From a virus (taxonomy: Duplodnaviria; Heunggongvirae; Uroviricota; Caudoviricetes), in the IMG/VR virus record IMGVR_UViG_2671180979_000013: 4,491 nt of DNA; one strand, written 5' to 3'. The notes below the pieces were generated by a model. It made no database searches and was not told the DNA's origin. It saw only the letters and a program-made list of their open reading frames with translations. Every line of letters begins with the position of its first letter. Position 1 is the stretch's first letter. Position numbers and translations under genes: made by a program. This document shows positions 1 through 4,491 of this stretch, piece after piece.

Positions 1-1184
1 CGGTCCTTCAGGGCGCTGAAGCTGTAGCGAAACCCCACGCCGTTATCATCCACCACCACATCGCTGTTGGTGTACGGCCACACCACATCCGACGGGCGGT
101 CCTGAACGAACGTCAGCGTCTGACCGTTCCATACCGGCATACAGCGCATCGCCGAGCAGAAATCACTGAGAACATCCCACGCCTTACGCTGTTGTGCCAG
201 GTACGCATTGAAGGTCATCCGCGGCTCGGTGCCCCCGAAGCCATCCGGCACCATCTGGTCGCAGTACTGCCCGATGGCATACAGCGCCCACTTGTCCACA
301 TCCGCCGCCCCCAGACGTTTTCCCATGCCGTAGCGCGGGTGAGTCAGCATGTCCCACAGGCACCAGGCAGGGTTGTTGCTGTATGCCGGTTTCAGGCTGC
401 CGTCCCAGATGCCGCTGTAAGTGCGTTTTTCCGGGTCATAGTTTGACGGTACCTGGATGATGCGACCGCGGATATGGTAGTTCACCGTCATCTGCTGACC
501 GCCAAACTGCTCCGCATCCACCTGCAGCCCCACAATCGCCGTGTTCGGGTAGCACTGTTTCACATCGATGATTTCGGTGTATGACGACCAGAGCGTCTTA
601 TTCTGCAACTGGTCCGTGGTGCTGTCCGCTGTCTCCCGGACCATCCGGATGTTAAAAGGACGGGGAGGCAGATTATCCAGAATCACCGACGCCAGGTACT
701 GTGAGGTGGTCTTGCCGTTAATGGTGACATCCTTTTCCGTCATCCATTTACCACCACGCTCAAGCTGAATCAGCAGGCGGACAGACGTCGGGTTACGGTC
801 ACCCTTTGAGGTGGTCTCCACCAGTGACTGCACCCCGAAGGTAACCCGCAGGCGGTCAATGTTCGCGGACGTAATGGTGCGCGTTACCGGCTTTGCCTTC
901 GTCACTTCCACGCCCAGTCCGGTTTCAGCTCCGGAGGACTCAAAGCCTTCCGGTGGTGTCTGCTCCTGCTCCCCAGCGCGCCAGACCGCGGTCACACCGT
1001 GTATCACAGGATTGCCGTCCGTGTCCGTCAGCGGGGTTTTGTTCACCAGGATACTCTGCAGCCCCTTCACCGGGCCTTCTATCGGTCCCTCACCAATCGC
1101 ATCAATCACACTCATCATCTGCGTGGATTTGAGATTGTCCTTCGCCTCGCGCGGTGTGTGCGCCTTGCCGCCACCTTTGCCCAT
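1..1184 (-). CDS. J: Host specificity / tail tip protein J, N-terminal ~394 codons; 3' end lies beyond the window start
   Basis: ATG at 1184..1182 on the minus strand, preceded by AAAGGGTGAG. My translation begins MGKGGGKAHTPREAKDNLKSTQMMSVIDAIGEGPIEGP...SNNPAWCLWDMLTHPRYGMGKRLGAADVDKWALY...CSAMRCMPVWNGQTLTFVQDRPSD, which matches the lambda gpJ N-terminus as I recall it. The frame stays open to position 1. Absent from the ORF track because no stop falls inside the window. Confidence 0.9.
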   Translation of the reverse strand, partial: MGKGGGKAHTPREAKDNLKSTQMMSVIDAIGEGPIEGPVKGLQSILVNKTPLTDTDGNPVIHGVTAVWRAGEQEQTPPEGFESSGAETGLGVEVTKAKPVTRTITSANIDRLRVTFGVQSLVETTSKGDRNPTSVRLLIQLERGGKWMTEKDVTINGKTTSQYLASVILDNLPPRPFNIRMVRETADSTTDQLQNKTLWSSYTEIIDVKQCYPNTAIVGLQVDAEQFGGQQMTVNYHIRGRIIQVPSNYDPEKRTYSGIWDGSLKPAYSNNPAWCLWDMLTHPRYGMGKRLGAADVDKWALYAIGQYCDQMVPDGFGGTEPRMTFNAYLAQQRKAWDVLSDFCSAMRCMPVWNGQTLTFVQDRPSDVVWPYTNSDVVVDDNGVGFRYSFSALKD

Positions 1185-1212
1185 TGTCTCACCCTTTACT
1201 GTGATAACTGTT

Positions 1213-1247
1213 ACGCACAAAAACAACAGGCATCCCGGAGGATGCCT
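1213..1247 (-). terminator. Perfect 9-bp stem / 4-nt loop hairpin followed on the minus strand by TTGTTTTTGTG; intrinsic-terminator-like, about 28 nt upstream of the J ATG
   Basis: Plus strand 1226..1247 is caggcatcc-cgga-ggatgcctg, a perfect inverted repeat. On the minus strand it is followed by ttgtttttgtgcg (plus 1225..1213). Function not demonstrated. Confidence 0.3.
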
Positions 1248-1286
1248 GCATCATGACGGAATAAAACTTCTGAATATCTTCACATT

Positions 1287-1315
1287 TTCACAAACTGACT
1301 GTGGTGCTAATAATT
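1287..1315 (+). promoter_or_regulatory. Candidate sigma70-like promoter on the plus strand, antisense to the tail operon
   Basis: TTCACA at 1287..1292, then a 15-17 nt spacer, then TAATAAT at 1308..1314. Each hexamer matches consensus at about 4 of 6 positions. It sits inside the AT-rich island, so chance matches are likely. Confidence 0.2.
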
Positions 1316-1387
1316 TCTCTGCGTTAATGTTTTTTTGCCCGAGCACCAGAAACAAAAATAACTCCTTAACGTTAATCTTTGTCTGTC

Positions 1388-1420
1388 CCCGCAACTCTGC
1401 GGGATTGTTTTATTCTTTTT
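1388..1420 (+). terminator. Plus-strand intrinsic-terminator-like hairpin with a T-rich tail
   Basis: cccgca (1388..1393), loop actc, tgcggg (1398..1403), then attgttttattcttttt (1404..1420). The T-tract overlaps the complement of the I stop codon. On the minus strand the A-tract precedes the stem, so it is not a terminator for the tail operon. Confidence 0.3.
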
Positions 1421-2099
1421 ACCCCTGCCGCCCGATAACCACAACCTTTCCGCCACCGCCTTCATCACGGGTACTGATGTCCTGGGATATCCGTCGTGAA
1501 CCAACCAGCATTTCACCATAAGGCACCGGCATCGGGTTACCCTGGGCAATCATATTGTCCAGTGAGGAAAAATACGTGTTCTGTTTACCGTTATCCGTTG
1601 CGCGGTAATCCGGTGTTTTTGCCTTCGGTGCCAGCATCTGGGCCACACCGCCCAGTATCATGCTAGCCCCCAGTGAAAACAGCATCGTGGTGGCAGAAAA
1701 ACCACCGGCTGCCAGGGCTGAACCCCATAACGCCATTGATGCCCCGGCCGTGAAGAACGACCCCACGATGGCCGCCGCCCCCAGCACAATCTGCAGTCCG
1801 CCCTTTCCGGCTCCGACCAGTCGCGGCACAATATGGATGACCGCCCCCTCACCCAGAGGTTCGTGAAGACGGGCGTACACCGCCTCCGGTGCCGTGTCCT
1901 CACCGCGAATACGTATCTGGTACCAGCCTTCGTTCATCTGACGGCGAAAGCCCGGCATCTGCATCGACAGGGCACGGATGGCTTCCGCTGCCGTGTTCAC
2001 GTACAGGCTGAGGCGGCGGCCAAATCGTTGCAAATCCCCGTGAAGGCAGATGCGTGCCAGTGGCGGTGACGCCAGACAGAATGCGTTCGTCGTTGCCAT
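1419..2099 (-). CDS. I: Tail assembly protein I (gpI-like), 226 aa
   Basis: Complete ORF in the track. The N-terminus MATTNAFCLASPPLARICLHGDLQRFGRR..., the tract HIVPRLVGAGKGG (Gly-Gly at residues 100-101), a Gly/Ala-rich hydrophobic segment, and the C-terminal NGKQNTYFSSLDNMIAQGN...GEMLVGSRRISQDIST match lambda gpI as I recall it. A GGGAGAGG Shine-Dalgarno-like motif lies upstream of the ATG. The start overlaps the K 3' end by 103 nt. Confidence 0.92.
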   Translation of the reverse strand: MATTNAFCLASPPLARICLHGDLQRFGRRLSLYVNTAAEAIRALSMQMPGFRRQMNEGWYQIRIRGEDTAPEAVYARLHEPLGEGAVIHIVPRLVGAGKGGLQIVLGAAAIVGSFFTAGASMALWGSALAAGGFSATTMLFSLGASMILGGVAQMLAPKAKTPDYRATDNGKQNTYFSSLDNMIAQGNPMPVPYGEMLVGSRRISQDISTRDEGGGGKVVVIGRQG

Positions 2100-2740
2100 T
2101 TTTCAGAATACCTCTCCCGTTTACTCAGTTGTTCAGGCAGATGGTGAAGCAGCTCACCGTTGCCGCAGTATATGGCGGCATGATTGGCCACCGATGCGCC
2201 AAAGCAGCACAGCAGAATATCGCCCGCCTGTGCAGAGGACAGGGGCACCCGGTAAAAGCCGGTGACCGCCATATTGTCCAGGTACAGGTTCTGGCCGTTG
2301 CGCCACCAGTCATCCTCACGCTCAAAATCCGGCATATCAATTCCCGCCAGATGGTAGGCATCCCGGAACAGCGTGTAACAGTCCGTCACCCCGTGCGCAA
2401 AGCGCCGTCCCGTCAGGTGCGGCACACAGCGGAATTTATGAATGTCCCCCCGGCAGACCAGCCACCAGGACAGTGCACTTTTTATCTGCAGCCGCCGGTC
2501 GGCCTCGCTCAGCCAGGGCAGACCACCGGGATGACTGTGGACCAGTGCCACAATCTCCCCCTGCATCTCTGCCCGCAGCCAGTCTTCCGGTGCAATACGA
2601 AAATACGCCTCCGGCTCTGCAGAGATATTCACACAAGGGATATACCGCTCCCCCTCCGGCGTTCTCACCACGAAGCCGCACGACTCCGCAGGCGCACACC
2701 GCCGGGCATGCGCCAGAATCGCTGATTCAGTCTGTGTCAT
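1997..2740 (-). CDS. K: Tail tip assembly protein K (gpK-like) with JAMM/MPN and NlpC/P60 motifs, 247 aa
   Basis: Start taken at the internal ATG 2740..2738 (MTQTESAILAHARRC...), 10 nt after the L stop; the 334-aa track ORF runs further upstream into L in another frame. The JAMM motif H-S-H-x7-S-x2-D is intact (HSHPGGLPWLSEAD; HSH encoded at 2539..2531). An NlpC/P60-like Cys (GVTDCYTLF, C121) and His (ANHAAIYCG, H187) are present. An unusually long lambda-like N-terminus is implied; a later start cannot be excluded. Confidence 0.85.
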   Translation of the reverse strand: MTQTESAILAHARRCAPAESCGFVVRTPEGERYIPCVNISAEPEAYFRIAPEDWLRAEMQGEIVALVHSHPGGLPWLSEADRRLQIKSALSWWLVCRGDIHKFRCVPHLTGRRFAHGVTDCYTLFRDAYHLAGIDMPDFEREDDWWRNGQNLYLDNMAVTGFYRVPLSSAQAGDILLCCFGASVANHAAIYCGNGELLHHLPEQLSKRERYSEKWQRRTHSVWRHRHWHASAFTGICNDLAAASACT

Positions 2741-2750
2741 AAAACAGGAT

Positions 2751-3449
2751 TTACTGCGAAAGTTTATTGATGGAAAGGAAACCGCCAAAATTAGCCACCA
2801 TGCCGCGCATCTCACACCCGCGCATGCACTTGCTGCATCTGTCCTTACGGATATCCGTGGTGGGTTTATCGAACTCATCCGCCACAGCCCCGCCCGTGTA
2901 ACCACACTCATCAGAGCGGTAGGTCCACATACAGGTGTTCGCCAGCATGATACGACCGGGAAACAGCGCTCCGTCCGTCTCCGTCGGTGTTGCCAGCACA
3001 AACGAGGCTGTCATGGCCGTCAGCTCTGACATCTGCTCCACCACCCAGCGGTCGCTCAGCTCCTGCTCCGGGTCCGCTTCCGGATTGCCCGCCACAAAAT
3101 TCACCGCATCCAGAAAACGGGCATACACCCGGCGGCGGACCACCGTGGCCCCCACCAGGCTCTGCAGGTCCTCCGCCATCCCGGTGACCAGACCAAACAG
3201 ATTGGACACCGTCAGCGACGGTCTGGCACTGCTGCCCTTCCCGTTCATCTCAAAACCGCTGCCGTCAATCGGGTATGCCTGATATTGCCGCCCCTGCCAG
3301 GTGACCGGCTCCCCTTTTTCATTCAGCTCATTACAGAAAAAATACCGCTCACCGCCCTGCACCGTCAGGTCAATTTCCCAGAGCACCACCCGCGGTGACT
3401 GCTCTGATTTAACCGACTCGTTCAGACTTTCTTCGTGAATATCCTGCAT
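2751..3449 (-). CDS. L: Tail tip protein L (gpL-like), 232 aa, full length
   Basis: Start at ATG 3449..3447 (MQDIHEESLNE...), overlapping the M stop as ATGA. The first 9 codons of the track ORF 2751..3476 are an upstream extension into M. The C-terminus ...CSKCMRGCEMRGMVANFGGFLSINKLSQ and the conserved tracts VVLWEIDL, GGERYFFCNE, PVTWQGRQYQ and FPGRIMLANTC match lambda gpL as I recall it. Confidence 0.92.
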   Translation of the reverse strand: MQDIHEESLNESVKSEQSPRVVLWEIDLTVQGGERYFFCNELNEKGEPVTWQGRQYQAYPIDGSGFEMNGKGSSARPSLTVSNLFGLVTGMAEDLQSLVGATVVRRRVYARFLDAVNFVAGNPEADPEQELSDRWVVEQMSELTAMTASFVLATPTETDGALFPGRIMLANTCMWTYRSDECGYTGGAVADEFDKPTTDIRKDRCSKCMRGCEMRGMVANFGGFLSINKLSQ

Positions 3450-3475
3450 CAGTTCACCACCTGCTCTATCGTGCA
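2847..3475. repeat. Direct repeat copy A (629 bp): 5' 603 bp of L plus the 3' end of M
   Basis: Hand alignment to 3863..4491 at a constant offset of 1016 bp gives about 26 substitutions and no indels, roughly 96% identity. Confidence 0.9.
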
Positions 3476-3790
3476 ACTGAAATCACTGTACCGGGCATTA
3501 TCCGTGACACTCCACTCACGGCACACAACCCTCACCGTCCGGTTATGTTTCGGCGGTCGCCACAAAAAGGCACGGTAACCACCATGCCACGATAAAAACT
3601 CTTCCAGCCAGCGCCGGGTTGACTCATCCGTCACCCGGAACACCGCCTGAAACGTCTTCAGTTGAGGATTCAGCCCTGTGGGGCGGCGCTGTTCATAACC
3701 GTCACCAAACCGCACCCTCACCACCGACGGCTTCTCACTCACCTGCATCCCTTCACGCGGGACCAGATGCAGCGTTTTTATCTCAGCCAC
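3449..3790 (-). CDS. M: Minor tail protein M (gpM-like), 113 codons, GTG start
   Basis: The C-terminus ...FSCTIEQVVN and the internal VRFGDGYEQR and WHGGYRAFLW tracts resemble lambda gpM. The start codon is GTG at 3790..3788 (checked by hand), preceded by GGAGG with an 8-nt spacer. An in-frame TGA lies immediately upstream of the GTG, so no longer N-terminus is possible. Confidence 0.8.
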   Translation of the reverse strand: MAEIKTLHLVPREGMQVSEKPSVVRVRFGDGYEQRRPTGLNPQLKTFQAVFRVTDESTRRWLEEFLSWHGGYRAFLWRPPKHNRTVRVVCREWSVTDNARYSDFSCTIEQVVN

Positions 3791-3862
3791 TCAGCATTCC
3801 TCCGTCACGTCGCATGGACAGCATCACCGCCTGCACCCGCTGGTCAATCAGCTGCACAAGAA
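3783..3862 (-). other. Orphaned 3'-terminal fragment (about 26 codons) of the gene upstream of M; by lambda gene order this would be the tape measure gene H
   Basis: A minus-strand frame reads ...LVQLIDQRVQAVMLSMRRDGGMLSG* with its TGA at 3785..3783, overlapping the M GTG start (GTGGCTGA). The frame is closed by a stop at 3893..3891, and sequence similarity to copy A ends at 3862/3863. Identification as H is by position only. Confidence 0.4.
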
Positions 3863-4465
3863 ACGGATATCCGTGGTGGGGTTGTCGAACTCATCCGCCA
3901 CAGCCCCGCCCGTGTAACCACACTCATCAGAGCGGTAGGTCCACATACAGGTGTTCGCCAGCATGATGCGACCGGGAAACAGCGCTCCGTCCGTCTCGGT
4001 CGGTGTAGCCAGCACAAACGAGGCCGTCATGGCTGTCAGCTGCGACATCTGCTCCACCACCCAGCGGTCACTCAGCTCCTGCTCCGGGTCCGCCTCCGGA
4101 TTGCCCGCAACGAAATTCACCGCATCCAGAAAACGGGCATACACCCGGCGGCGGACCACCGTGGCCCCCACCAGGCTCTGCAGGTCCTCCGCCATTCCGG
4201 TGACAAGGCCAAACAGATTGGACACCGTCAGCGACGGTCTGGCACTGCTGCCCTTCCCGTTCATCTCAAAGCCGCTGCCGTCAATCGGGTACGCCTGATA
4301 TTGCCGCCCCTGCCAGGTGACCGGCTCCCCTTTTTCATTCAGTTCATTGCAGAAAAAATAGCGCTCACCGCCCTGCACCGTCAGGTCGATTTCCCAGAGT
4401 ACCACACGCGGTGACTGCTCTGACTTAACCGACTCGTTCAGGCTTTCTTCGTGAATATCCTGCAT
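3848..4465 (-). pseudogene. Truncated second copy of L (L'): 202 gpL codons plus 3 unrelated codons (FLCS) and a stop
   Basis: 205-aa track ORF. Residues 1-202 differ from the L copy at 2751..3449 at only 2 positions (E to Q, K to N). The sequence diverges completely after ...PTTDIR, at plus coordinate 3862/3863. The start ATG 4465..4463 overlaps the stop of an upstream M copy as ATGA. Confidence 0.75.
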
Positions 4466-4491
4466 CAGTTCACCACCTGCTCTATCGTGCA
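3863..4491. repeat. Direct repeat copy B (629 bp, runs to the window edge): L' plus the 3' end of a second M
   Basis: Same alignment as copy A. Similarity ends sharply at 3862/3863; plus 3857..3862 caagaa does not match 2841..2846 gtcctt. Confidence 0.9.
4465..4491 (-). CDS. 3' end (last 8 codons plus stop) of a second M copy; the rest lies beyond the window end
   Basis: The reverse complement of 4468..4491 encodes CTIEQVVN followed by TGA (4467..4465), identical to the C-terminus of M at 3449..3790. Confidence 0.5.
   Translation of the reverse strand, partial: CTIEQVVN

What the first reader, a model, noticed from the sequence alone, without database searches (positions are those of the whole stretch)
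1213..1247. Perfect 22-bp hairpin with a U-tract on the operon strand, immediately upstream of the J ribosome-binding site
caggcatcc-cgga-ggatgcctg is a perfect 9-bp stem with a 4-nt loop. On the minus (tail-gene) strand it is followed by TTGTTTTTGTG, which is an intrinsic-terminator architecture sitting between I and J inside a late operon. It could be a terminator read through by antiterminated polymerase, an RNA processing or stability element, or a control point that uncouples J expression. It also contains the in-frame ATG codons noted for the open frame.
Basis: seen in the sequence. Interest (0 to 1): 0.35.

Follow-up and report, generated by a model that had tools for sequence, protein, structure and literature searches.

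The report
Terminator hairpin before tail gene J
The hairpin is a real, conserved transcription-terminator-like signal on the tail-gene strand just ahead of tail-tip gene J, as related phages also have; the spacer around it also carries a known small regulatory RNA gene (PasB) on the other strand, so the finding is sound but mostly ordinary.

Summary
The hairpin is real, at 1227-1248. It has a perfect 9-bp stem and a 4-nt loop. On the minus (tail-gene) strand a 10th G-U pair adds on, giving dG -19.6 kcal/mol, followed by UUGUUUUUGUG. No dinucleotide shuffle of the window (0/1000) gave such a stem plus a U-tract.

All 164 related I-J spacers collected keep it, with one compensatory pair (C-G to U-A, with U-G intermediates). 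The U-tract, the UCCG tetraloop and most wobble pairs work only on the tail-gene strand.

Unrelated hairpin-plus-U-tract elements occupy the same spot in lambda, HK022, HK446, mEp237, phiKO2 and T1-like phages. Two of these records annotate it as a terminator.

The 234-bp AT-rich I-J spacer is a moron-like cassette. Its plus strand carries a variant of the published Hfq-dependent sRNA PasB (very probably Sakai EcOnc22-24), with its own promoter and terminator. The hairpin lies 38 bp upstream of that promoter's -35, on the other strand.

Best reading: an intrinsic terminator kept at the J side of a moron-insertion hotspot. It would stop unmodified polymerase and be read through by Q-modified polymerase. 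No 3'-end data were available to test this.

The "in-frame ATG" remark is wrong. Interest is low to moderate.

The parts
1227..1248 (-). Stem-loop. Minus-strand RNA CAGGCAUCC-UCCG-GGAUGCCUG: 9 perfect pairs, extended to 10 by a G-U pair between 1249 and 1226. The loop is a C(UCCG)G tetraloop.
   Evidence: Conservation and compensatory change.
1216..1226 (-). U-tract UUGUUUUUGUG directly 3' of the stem on the tail-gene strand
   Evidence: T[T/C]GTTTT is kept in all 17 distinct variants.
1185..1418 (.). I-J spacer: a 234-bp AT-rich (37-42% GC) moron-like cassette. Phage lambda has only 60 nt here.
1287..1314 (+). Sigma-70 promoter-like site of the PasB-type sRNA gene (TTCACA-16-AATAAT). E2348/69 has a perfect TATAAT at the aligned place.
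1321..1413 (+). PasB-type small RNA gene, antisense to the tail operon. The start at about 1321 is predicted from the promoter. By homology to the published E2348/69 5' end the mature RNA starts at 1336. The 3' end lies in the U-tract at about 1411-1413.
   Evidence: Sakai EcOnc22-24 lie in the same spacers.
1388..1413 (+). Intrinsic terminator of the PasB-type RNA: CCCGCA-ACTC-TGCGGG followed by ATTGTTTTAT. It abuts the I stop codon.
1..1184 (-). 5' part of tail-tip gene J (MGKGGGKAHTPREAKDNLKS...). The ATG is at 1184-1182 and the Shine-Dalgarno at about 1196-1188.
1419..2099 (-). Tail assembly gene I (226 aa)
1189..1254 (-). 21-codon open frame (MMQASSGMPVVFVRNSYHSKG*) running through the hairpin. 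Judged non-coding.
   Evidence: There is no Shine-Dalgarno, and the ATG is absent in variant v12.

Best explanation
The element is a Rho-independent (intrinsic) terminator on the tail-gene strand, placed just ahead of gene J.

How it would work. As RNA polymerase leaves the I-J spacer, the nascent RNA folds into a 10-pair GC-rich stem with a UCCG tetraloop, directly followed by UUGUUUUU. Unmodified polymerase is released there. Any transcription of the tail strand that was not loaded with the late antiterminator Q at PR' therefore stops before J and the genes beyond it. Such transcription includes any RNA that has run antisense across the adjoining PasB sRNA gene. During lytic growth Q-modified polymerase reads through. 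The hairpin then remains as an intercistronic structure in the late mRNA.

Origin. A pre-J terminator appears to be an old fixture of lambda-like tail-tip modules. Accessory cassettes are inserted between the I stop codon and this terminator. Here the cassette is the PasB sRNA gene; in HK022 it is gp22/gp23.

What is shown and what is inferred. Shown: the structure, its strand-specific features, its conservation and the positional analogues. Inferred: actual termination, read-through by Q-modified polymerase, and the biological purpose.
For: Structure and significance: 0/1000 shuffles; -19.6 kcal/mol, z -5.06.

Strand specificity. The U-tract is present only on the minus strand. The C(UNCG)G loop forms only on that strand. 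Eight G-U cells pair only on that strand, against two that pair only on the other.

Conservation. 164 instances in 17 distinct variants all keep the stem and the U-tract. 98.8% of cells are paired. One pair shows C-G (8), U-A (5) and U-G (2).

Independent analogues at the same junction:
- lambda: AAACCGCC-TGCG-GGCGGTTT then TGTCATTTAT
- PhiR49_1, HK446 and mEp237
- phiKO2, annotated as a putative terminator
- T1-like pSf-1, Henu8, ESP2949-1, phiKP26 and Sweeny, the last annotated as a terminator
.

Insertion pattern. HK022 keeps the same pre-J hairpin as HK446 although two annotated morons sit between I and it.

Other. The same stem motif with a U-tract occurs next to a stop codon or between tRNA genes in unrelated bacteria.
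Against: No 3'-end or reporter data could be consulted. A Sakai Term-seq set exists (GEO GSE143631, cited in PMC7547250) but is not held here.

Ten of 78 close relatives, the sodC-moron class, have no tail-strand terminator next to J. The element is therefore probably dispensable for tail production.

Q-modified polymerase should ignore the element, so any role in the lytic cycle is unclear.

No tail-strand promoter was found upstream in the spacer. The tail genes are almost silent in the EPEC lysogen, with base means of 3-15, so there may be little transcription to stop.

Covariation support is modest because the relatives are close. Only one pair changes on both sides, and 12 of 500 shuffles reach the observed score.
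Confidence: 0.6

Rival explanations
1. It is an RNA stability or processing element of the late polycistronic mRNA. The hairpin would act as a barrier to 3'-to-5' exonucleases or as a nuclease site, setting different lifetimes for the I-proximal and J-proximal parts of the transcript. Transcription would not end there.
For: The element sits inside an operon that is transcribed by terminator-resistant polymerase. A structure at this junction is kept even in virulent T1-like phages. The hairpin is very stable.
Against: A decay barrier does not need a U-tract. Yet a U-rich tract directly follows the stem in every independent version. In the T1-like phages a TATAAT-like (or TACAAT) hexamer follows the hairpin in four of the five, which fits real termination followed by re-initiation (the promoter reading is mine from the sequence).
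Confidence: 0.15
2. It is the 3' end (Hfq-binding stem-loop plus U-tail) of a discrete small RNA made on the tail-gene strand. That RNA would either be a short transcript starting in the conserved block upstream of the hairpin, or an RNA derived from the 3' end of the I message that is fully complementary to PasB and acts as its cis-antisense partner or sponge.
For: A stem-loop plus U-tail is the canonical 3' module of an sRNA. The roughly 60 nt upstream of the hairpin are the most conserved part of the spacer. Lambdoid moron sites are known to carry convergent sRNA pairs (PMC4104026). The Hfq-CRAC screen discarded same-strand peaks within 100 nt of a coding sequence, so it could not have reported such an RNA.
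Against: No sigma-70-like promoter was found on the minus strand of the spacer; by eye the best candidate matches only 7 of 12 positions. No such RNA appears in the parts of the EPEC RIL-seq tables that are held. The conserved block is also explained as the -35 and upstream (UP-like) region of the PasB promoter.
Confidence: 0.1
3. It works as a DNA palindrome rather than as RNA. It would be a binding site for a dimeric regulator of the PasB promoter (centred about 84 bp upstream of the predicted start) or a preferred recombination joint between mosaic modules.
For: The palindrome lies just upstream of the PasB promoter. Two variants look like recombinants with the crossover in the loop, pairing left and right arms of different types. 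In another class of relatives the mosaic breakpoint lies immediately next to it.
Against: The G-U-type asymmetric variants break DNA symmetry but keep the RNA pairing. The adjacent T-tract and the UNCG loop have no role in a protein-binding site. Lambda, HK446, phiKO2 and the T1-like phages lack PasB and still have an equivalent element.
Confidence: 0.05
4. It is part of a translated 21-codon leader. Ribosomes would melt the hairpin and stop 4 nt before the J ATG, coupling J translation to the leader.
For: An open frame runs from the ATG at 1254 through the hairpin to a TGA at 1191-1189. Comparable open frames exist in the E2348/69 and Sakai versions (read).
Against: There is no Shine-Dalgarno before the ATG. 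The ATG is missing in variant v12. The peptide sequence and its end point differ between variants. An open stretch of about 20 codons is expected by chance.
Confidence: 0.03

Closest known systems
Putative Rho-independent terminators annotated between the I and J homologues of phage phiKO2 (AY374448, 15298-15320) and Klebsiella phage Sweeny (NC_049839, 25369-25398), plus the unannotated hairpin in lambda at about 15463-15492
   Same: Same place (after the I stop, a few tens of nt before the J start). Same strand. Same architecture: a GC-rich stem, a 3-4 nt loop (4 nt, often UNCG, in the lambdoid examples) and a U-tract.
   Different: There is no sequence similarity, and the stem here is longer and stronger (10 pairs, -19.6 kcal/mol). 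Here about 170 nt of sRNA cassette separate it from the I stop. In the T1-like phages a promoter-like TATAAT follows the terminator; none is evident here. As far as I could find, none of these elements has been tested experimentally.
PasB sRNA of EPEC E2348/69 (Pearl Mizrahi et al. 2021, PMC8550237; Zhu, Shabalina and Storz 2026, bioRxiv 10.64898/2026.05.13.724894) and EcOnc22/23/24 of EHEC Sakai (Tree et al. 2014, PMC4104026)
   Same: The window's spacer is homologous to the E2348/69 I-J spacer that contains PasB. It has the same promoter, body and terminator on the strand opposite the tail genes. The same spacer in Sakai Sp11, Sp14 and Sp15 holds the EcOnc22-24 Hfq peaks.
   Different: The hairpin of the finding is not part of PasB. 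It lies upstream of the PasB promoter and works on the other strand. The window's PasB is a variant with a 6-nt insertion, a 4-nt deletion and a shorter terminator loop. Rfam 15 has no model that matches it.
Morons (Juhala et al. 2000 concept; HK022 gp22/gp23 between the I and J homologues)
   Same: The spacer is extra DNA relative to lambda and is AT-rich. It carries its own promoter and terminator and sits at the same I-J junction where HK022 has annotated morons.
   Different: The cargo is a small RNA on the antisense strand rather than a protein gene. The hairpin of the finding is not the cargo's own terminator. It resembles the pre-existing pre-J hairpin that HK022 shares with moron-free HK446.
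tR' and other terminators overridden by the lambdoid late antiterminator Q
   Same: It would be an intrinsic terminator in the late transcription unit, expected to stop unmodified polymerase and to be ignored by Q-modified polymerase. This rests on established knowledge of lambda Q, summarised in PMC7547250.
   Different: tR' lies directly after PR' and its short product is a documented RNA (6S RNA / StxS). This element lies about 15 kb into the operon (by analogy with lambda, where J starts at 15505), and no product or regulatory role has been shown.

Membership tests
Rho-independent (intrinsic) terminator | GC-rich stem-loop in the nascent RNA | tested here: met
   10 pairs, 6 of them G-C, with a 4-nt loop; -19.6 kcal/mol and z -5.06
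Rho-independent (intrinsic) terminator | U-rich tract immediately 3' of the stem on the transcribed strand | tested here: met
   UUGUUUUU directly follows the stem on the minus strand only. The plus strand has CAUCAUGA after the stem. The tract is kept in all 17 variants.
Rho-independent (intrinsic) terminator | Lies outside coding sequence, on the strand of the flanking genes | tested here: met
   It lies in the I-J spacer on the same strand as I and J.
Rho-independent (intrinsic) terminator | RNA 3' ends or polymerase release at the U-tract | not testable with these tools
   Term-seq for Sakai exists (GSE143631) but is not held here. No supplement with 3'-end tables was available.
PasB / EcOnc22-24 sRNA gene (is the hairpin part of it?) | Lies within the transcribed PasB unit, on the PasB strand | tested here: not met
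   The published PasB (NC_011601.1 1466343..1466261) aligns to window 1336-1413 on the plus strand. The hairpin lies 38 bp upstream of the -35 and has no U-tract on that strand.
PasB / EcOnc22-24 sRNA gene (does the spacer carry one?) | Homologous sequence between I and J, antisense to them, with a promoter and an intrinsic terminator | tested here: met
   Alignment to the E2348/69 locus, the promoter and terminator scan, and the same spacer in Sakai Sp11/14/15 with Hfq peaks. Expression of this particular copy was not tested.
Moron | Extra DNA relative to related phages, with different base composition and its own promoter and terminator | tested here: met
   234 nt against 60 nt in lambda. 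GC is 37-42% against 55-65% in the flanks. Promoter and terminator are on the plus strand.
Any Rfam 15 family | Covariance-model match | tested here: not met
   No match with E-value of 1 or less anywhere in the window. There was also none in the homologous spacers of E2348/69 and Sakai.
Dispersed repeated palindrome (REP/BIME-like) | Many copies in varied contexts within one genome | tested here: not met
   There is a single copy in the window. In IMG/VR the related copies all sit in the same I-J context. The cross-species scan found only 7 loci: one 546-nt contig carrying the same spacer sequence (upstream block, hairpin and J leader) and six unrelated gene-end hairpins.

The most novel reading that the evidence does not exclude
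The pre-J terminator would be more than punctuation. Together with the antisense PasB gene it would form a two-state switch.

In the lysogen, PasB is made freely. Any stray tail-strand transcript is cut off at the hairpin, which would give it an Hfq-type 3' end and make it a defined anti-PasB RNA.

On induction, Q-modified polymerase runs through the cassette and the terminator. This would silence PasB by collision and by duplex formation while turning on J.

More broadly, a terminator kept in front of J across lambda-like, HK97-like, N15-like and T1-like phages would be a general device. It would set J dosage and mark a preferred landing site for accessory cargo.
Probability: 0.12. Interest if true: 0.55.

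Novelty: new member of a known kind. Interest (0 to 1): 0.27.

Why it matters
Taken alone, the element is an ordinary-looking intrinsic terminator, and equivalents are already annotated as putative terminators in a few phage genomes.

Two things give it some value.

1. A terminator-like hairpin just before J recurs, with complete sequence turnover, in lambda, HK022/HK446, mEp237, phiKO2, T1-like phages and this Stx-type prophage family. Accessory cargo (PasB here, gp22/gp23 in HK022) is inserted between the I stop and this hairpin. That points to a conserved and untested piece of late-operon architecture, and to a defined moron-insertion site.

2. It fixes the anatomy of the PasB locus. PasB is an Hfq-dependent sRNA with many partners in EPEC but no assigned function. 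The comparison also indicates that PasB and the EHEC RNAs EcOnc22-24 are the same gene family, a link that the table describing PasB does not list.

If the terminator does shape antisense transcription over PasB, or J dosage, that would bear on how prophage-encoded regulators are switched between lysogeny and lytic growth.

Tried and rejected
Rfam. A permissive scan of the window and of the homologous E2348/69 and Sakai loci found nothing in the spacer.

Hfq peaks on the hairpin. At first the Sakai Hfq-CRAC peaks for EcOnc22-24 seemed to fall on the hairpin, 23-84 nt from the J start. Anchoring on AsxR showed that the paper's NC_002695.1 coordinates are about 135-142 lower than NC_002695.2. 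The peaks then fall on the PasB body on the opposite strand.

Known tail-strand RNA. I looked for one in the EPEC RIL-seq tables. There is no entry for the I-J spacer on that strand, but two of the files are truncated as stored.

Tail-strand promoter. The scan found none. By eye the best candidate was CAGTCA-17-GATATT, which matches only 7 of 12 positions. The PasB -10 read in reverse gives TATTAG or TATAAG, which lack the essential final T. I therefore did not adopt divergent transcription from the PasB promoter.

Small ORFs.
- The 47-aa TTG frame at 1251-1394 has relatives of 22, 31 and 39 aa with shifting frames, and the window lacks the ATG the others use. Its conserved ATGAAGATTAA is the complement of the PasB region just 5' of its terminator, where Zhu et al. 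place the proposed seed.
- The 21-codon frame through the hairpin has no Shine-Dalgarno and its ATG is not conserved.
I judged both non-coding.

Literature. Searches for experimental work on terminators inside the lambda late operon or at I-J found nothing relevant. The phiKO2 genome paper is not held.

Cross-species scan for the hairpin motif. It gave one probable contaminant contig and six unrelated gene-end hairpins, and no new relatives.

Full report
WHAT THE WINDOW IS

The minus strand carries a lambda-type tail-tip gene block. M is at 3449-3790, L at 2751-3476, K at about 2096-2741 and I at 1419-2099. The first 1184 nt of J follow, with the ATG at 1184 and product MGKGGGKAHTPREAKDNLKS. 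The block matches thousands of E. coli prophages. The best chromosomal hits are 95-96% identical, and their annotation gives the same gene order. An IMG/VR contig, IMGVR_UViG_2690316227_000010, is 99.87% identical over window 1-3861.

CHECK OF THE OBSERVATION

The inverted repeat is real: caggcatcc-cgga-ggatgcctg at 1227-1248.

On the minus strand the RNA reads CAGGCAUCC-UCCG-GGAUGCCUG followed by UUGUUUUUGUG. A G-U pair between 1249 and 1226 lengthens the stem to 10 pairs. The fold is -19.6 kcal/mol with z = -5.06. It is the strongest terminator-like site the scan finds in the window.

A perfect stem of 9 bp or more is not rare by itself. It occurs in 95 of 1000 dinucleotide shuffles of the window. 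With at least 6 T in the next 9 nt it occurs in 0 of 1000.

One detail of the finding is wrong. The ATGs at 1254, 1251 and 1233 are in the +1 frame relative to J. J's own frame carries a TGA at 1253-1251.

The I-J spacer (1185-1418) is 234 nt long and 37-42% GC, between flanks of 55-65% GC. Lambda has only 60 nt at this junction.

On the plus strand, antisense to the tail genes, there is a promoter-like site at 1287-1314 (TTCACA-16-AATAAT). There is also a terminator at 1388-1403 followed by ATTGTTTTAT.

This unit is homologous to the locus of PasB, an 83-nt Hfq-dependent sRNA of EPEC E2348/69. The published coordinates are NC_011601.1 1466343..1466261, minus strand. That places PasB between tail assembly gene I (which ends at 1466255) and J (which starts at 1466496), antisense to both. 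The two spacers align along their whole length, and E2348/69 has a perfect TATAAT at the aligned -10.

In EHEC Sakai the same spacer occurs in prophages Sp11, Sp14 and Sp15. Tree et al. list three homologous Hfq-bound RNAs there, EcOnc22/23/24. They are about 85 nt long, destabilised without Hfq, and on the strand opposite the tail genes. Their coordinates refer to NC_002695.1. Using AsxR as an anchor, that version runs about 135-142 nt behind NC_002695.2. With this correction the peaks fall on the PasB body, not on the hairpin.

So the spacer is a moron-like cassette for a known sRNA. The hairpin of the finding lies 38 bp upstream of that gene's -35, and it functions on the other strand. Rfam has no model for this RNA.

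CONSERVATION OF THE HAIRPIN

I collected related spacers in two ways that do not depend on the hairpin itself. One was a scan with the I protein. The other was an exact-pattern scan with the conserved block between the PasB promoter and the hairpin.

This gave 164 instances in 17 distinct versions, and all of them keep a stem-loop plus U-tract. On the aligned versions 98.8% of cells are paired. Stem position 7 shows C-G (8), U-A (5), U-G (2) and one C-A. The outermost pair is A-U (12) or G-U (4). Position 8 is C-G (14) or U-G (2).

The window's version (U-A) and the Sakai version (C-G) differ by a full compensatory change. Eight cells pair only on the tail-gene strand (G-U there, A-C on the complement). 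Two cells show the reverse.

The loop UCCG closed by C-G is a UNCG-type tetraloop, but only on the tail-gene strand. The U-tract T[T/C]GTTTT is kept throughout.

The covariation statistic is modest, with 12 of 500 shuffles reaching it, because the relatives are close.

THE SAME ARCHITECTURE ELSEWHERE

Among 80 loci whose I protein is at least 95% identical, 78 could be classified:
- 43 have PasB plus this hairpin.
- 25 have PasB plus an unrelated hairpin that looks bidirectional (ACCCCGGTATC-TGCT-GATACCGGGGT then TTCTCTTT).
- 10 carry a sodC-like gene on the antisense strand in an 887-nt spacer, with no tail-strand terminator next to J. The sodC identity is my reading of the sequence and was not checked with a search.

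Further afield, hairpin-plus-U-tract elements of unrelated sequence lie between the I and J homologues of these phages:
- lambda: AAACCGCC-TGCG-GGCGGTTT then TGTCATTTAT, at about 15463-15492
- PhiR49_1
- HK446: GGCCACC-TTCG-GGTGGC then TTTTTTAT
- mEp237
- phiKO2, where the record annotates a putative terminator
- the virulent T1-like phages pSf-1, Henu8, ESP2949-1, phiKP26 and Sweeny

In Sweeny the element is annotated as a terminator. In four of the five T1-like phages a TATAAT-like (or TACAAT) hexamer follows it, which I read as promoter-like.

Three phages with a 9-nt spacer or overlapping genes have none: Serratia Bigdog, Mannheimia 3927AP1 and Burkholderia KS9.

HK022 is the most instructive case. 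Two annotated morons (gp22, gp23) sit between I and J, yet the HK446-type hairpin is still there, 18 nt before J. Cargo is therefore inserted between the I stop and a pre-existing pre-J hairpin. The arrangement in this window has the same layout.

MOST LIKELY MECHANISM

The features that define an intrinsic terminator and can be read from sequence are all present, on one strand only. Selection has maintained both the stem and the U-tract. A decay barrier or a protein-binding palindrome would not need the U-tract.

I therefore commit to a Rho-independent terminator for tail-strand transcription, with confidence 0.6.

It follows from established knowledge of lambdoid late control that polymerase modified by Q at PR' would read through, while unmodified polymerase would stop before J. 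In the read-through mRNA the hairpin may in addition slow 3' decay of the upstream part. Termination itself, Q read-through and the purpose are all inferences.

Points against:
- The sodC-class relatives lack such an element.
- I found no tail-strand promoter whose transcripts would need stopping.
- The tail genes are almost silent in the EPEC lysogen.

Rivals are an RNA stability element (0.15), the 3' end of an undiscovered tail-strand small RNA complementary to PasB (0.10), a DNA palindrome (0.05) and a translated leader (0.03).

COMPARISON WITH WHAT IS KNOWN, AND NOVELTY

The element works like, and by sequence-level criteria qualifies as, an intrinsic terminator. Its positional equivalents are already annotated as putative terminators in at least two phage records. 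The neighbouring sRNA is published. I found no experimental study of a pre-J terminator in the held literature.

I rate it a new member of a known kind, with low to moderate interest.

Three by-products may be useful:
- the recurrence of a pre-J terminator across distant siphophage lineages, with complete sequence turnover
- the I-J junction as a cargo site (PasB, a sodC-like gene, HK022 gp22/gp23)
- the apparent equivalence of PasB and EcOnc22-24

DECISIVE TEST

Term-seq and dRNA-seq data already exist for strain Sakai (GEO GSE143631). The main explanation predicts minus-strand 3' ends in the U-tract of the Sp11, Sp14 and Sp15 spacers.

Noticed in passing
window 1287-1413 (+): A complete small-RNA gene lies antisense to the tail operon, with promoter, body and terminator. 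It is a sequence variant of the published EPEC sRNA PasB.
   Followed up: yes
L003 992-1231, L004 and L005 (Sakai Sp15, Sp14, Sp11 I-J spacers): The EHEC RNAs EcOnc22/23/24 (Tree 2014) lie in the homologous spacers on the PasB strand. After a coordinate correction of about 135-142 nt they fall on the PasB body. The PasB table of Pearl Mizrahi 2021 lists EHEC homologues for other Pas RNAs but none for PasB.
   Followed up: partly
window 3863-4491 versus 2847-3476: A second, truncated copy of gene L (about 96% identical, start-to-start spacing 1016 nt) is joined at about 3862 to the last roughly 70 nt of the tape-measure gene, in front of M. The nearest IMG/VR contig and the E. coli chromosomes have the tape-measure gene there instead. 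This window therefore carries a rearrangement, a chimera between two prophages, or an assembly join.
   Followed up: partly
L020, L035, L043, L044 and others (887-nt I-J spacer): In 10 of 80 close relatives the PasB promoter and the hairpin are replaced by an antisense gene that looks like Cu/Zn superoxide dismutase (sodC), with its own terminator. The 3' part of PasB remains downstream of it. The sodC identity was read by eye and not searched.
   Followed up: partly
L016 1750-2250 and 24 similar loci: A third spacer class keeps PasB but has a different 11-14-pair hairpin with an A-tract on one side and a U-rich tract on the other. It also has an extra promoter-like site on the PasB strand (TTGCCA-18-TATCCT), which may indicate a second small transcript.
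   Followed up: no
L214-L218 (T1-like phages Henu8, pSf-1, ESP2949-1, phiKP26, Sweeny): Virulent T1-like phages have a strong terminator between the I and J homologues. In four of the five it is followed within about 10 nt by a TATAAT-like (or TACAAT) hexamer. J may therefore begin its own transcription unit there.
   Followed up: partly
window 1251-1394 (-); the same region in L002 and L003: Small tail-strand frames start at a conserved ATGAAGATTAA (MKIN...) in relatives, at 22-39 aa. The window lacks that ATG and instead has a 47-aa TTG frame. The conserved 11-mer is the exact complement of the PasB region just 5' of its terminator, where a seed has been proposed. That may be the real reason for its conservation.
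   Followed up: partly
window 3569-3588 (-): There is a second terminator-like site (GGCATGGTGGTTACCGTGCC followed by TTTTTGTGGC, 8 pairs) inside the coding sequence of M.
   Followed up: no
L221 (Asaia platycodi JCM 25414, 546-nt contig): A tiny contig of an acetic-acid bacterium assembly carries the E. coli prophage I-J spacer with this hairpin. It is probably contamination.
   Followed up: no
L222-L227 (Thalassospira, Rhodospirillales, Clostridia and Ruminococcus genomes): Nearly the same stem (CAGGCAYCC...GGRTGCCTG) with UUGUUUU occurs in unrelated sequence: about 40 nt after an apparent stop codon in the Thalassospira/Rhodospirillales loci, and between tRNA genes in Ruminococcus. This seems to be convergent use of one terminator motif.
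   Followed up: no
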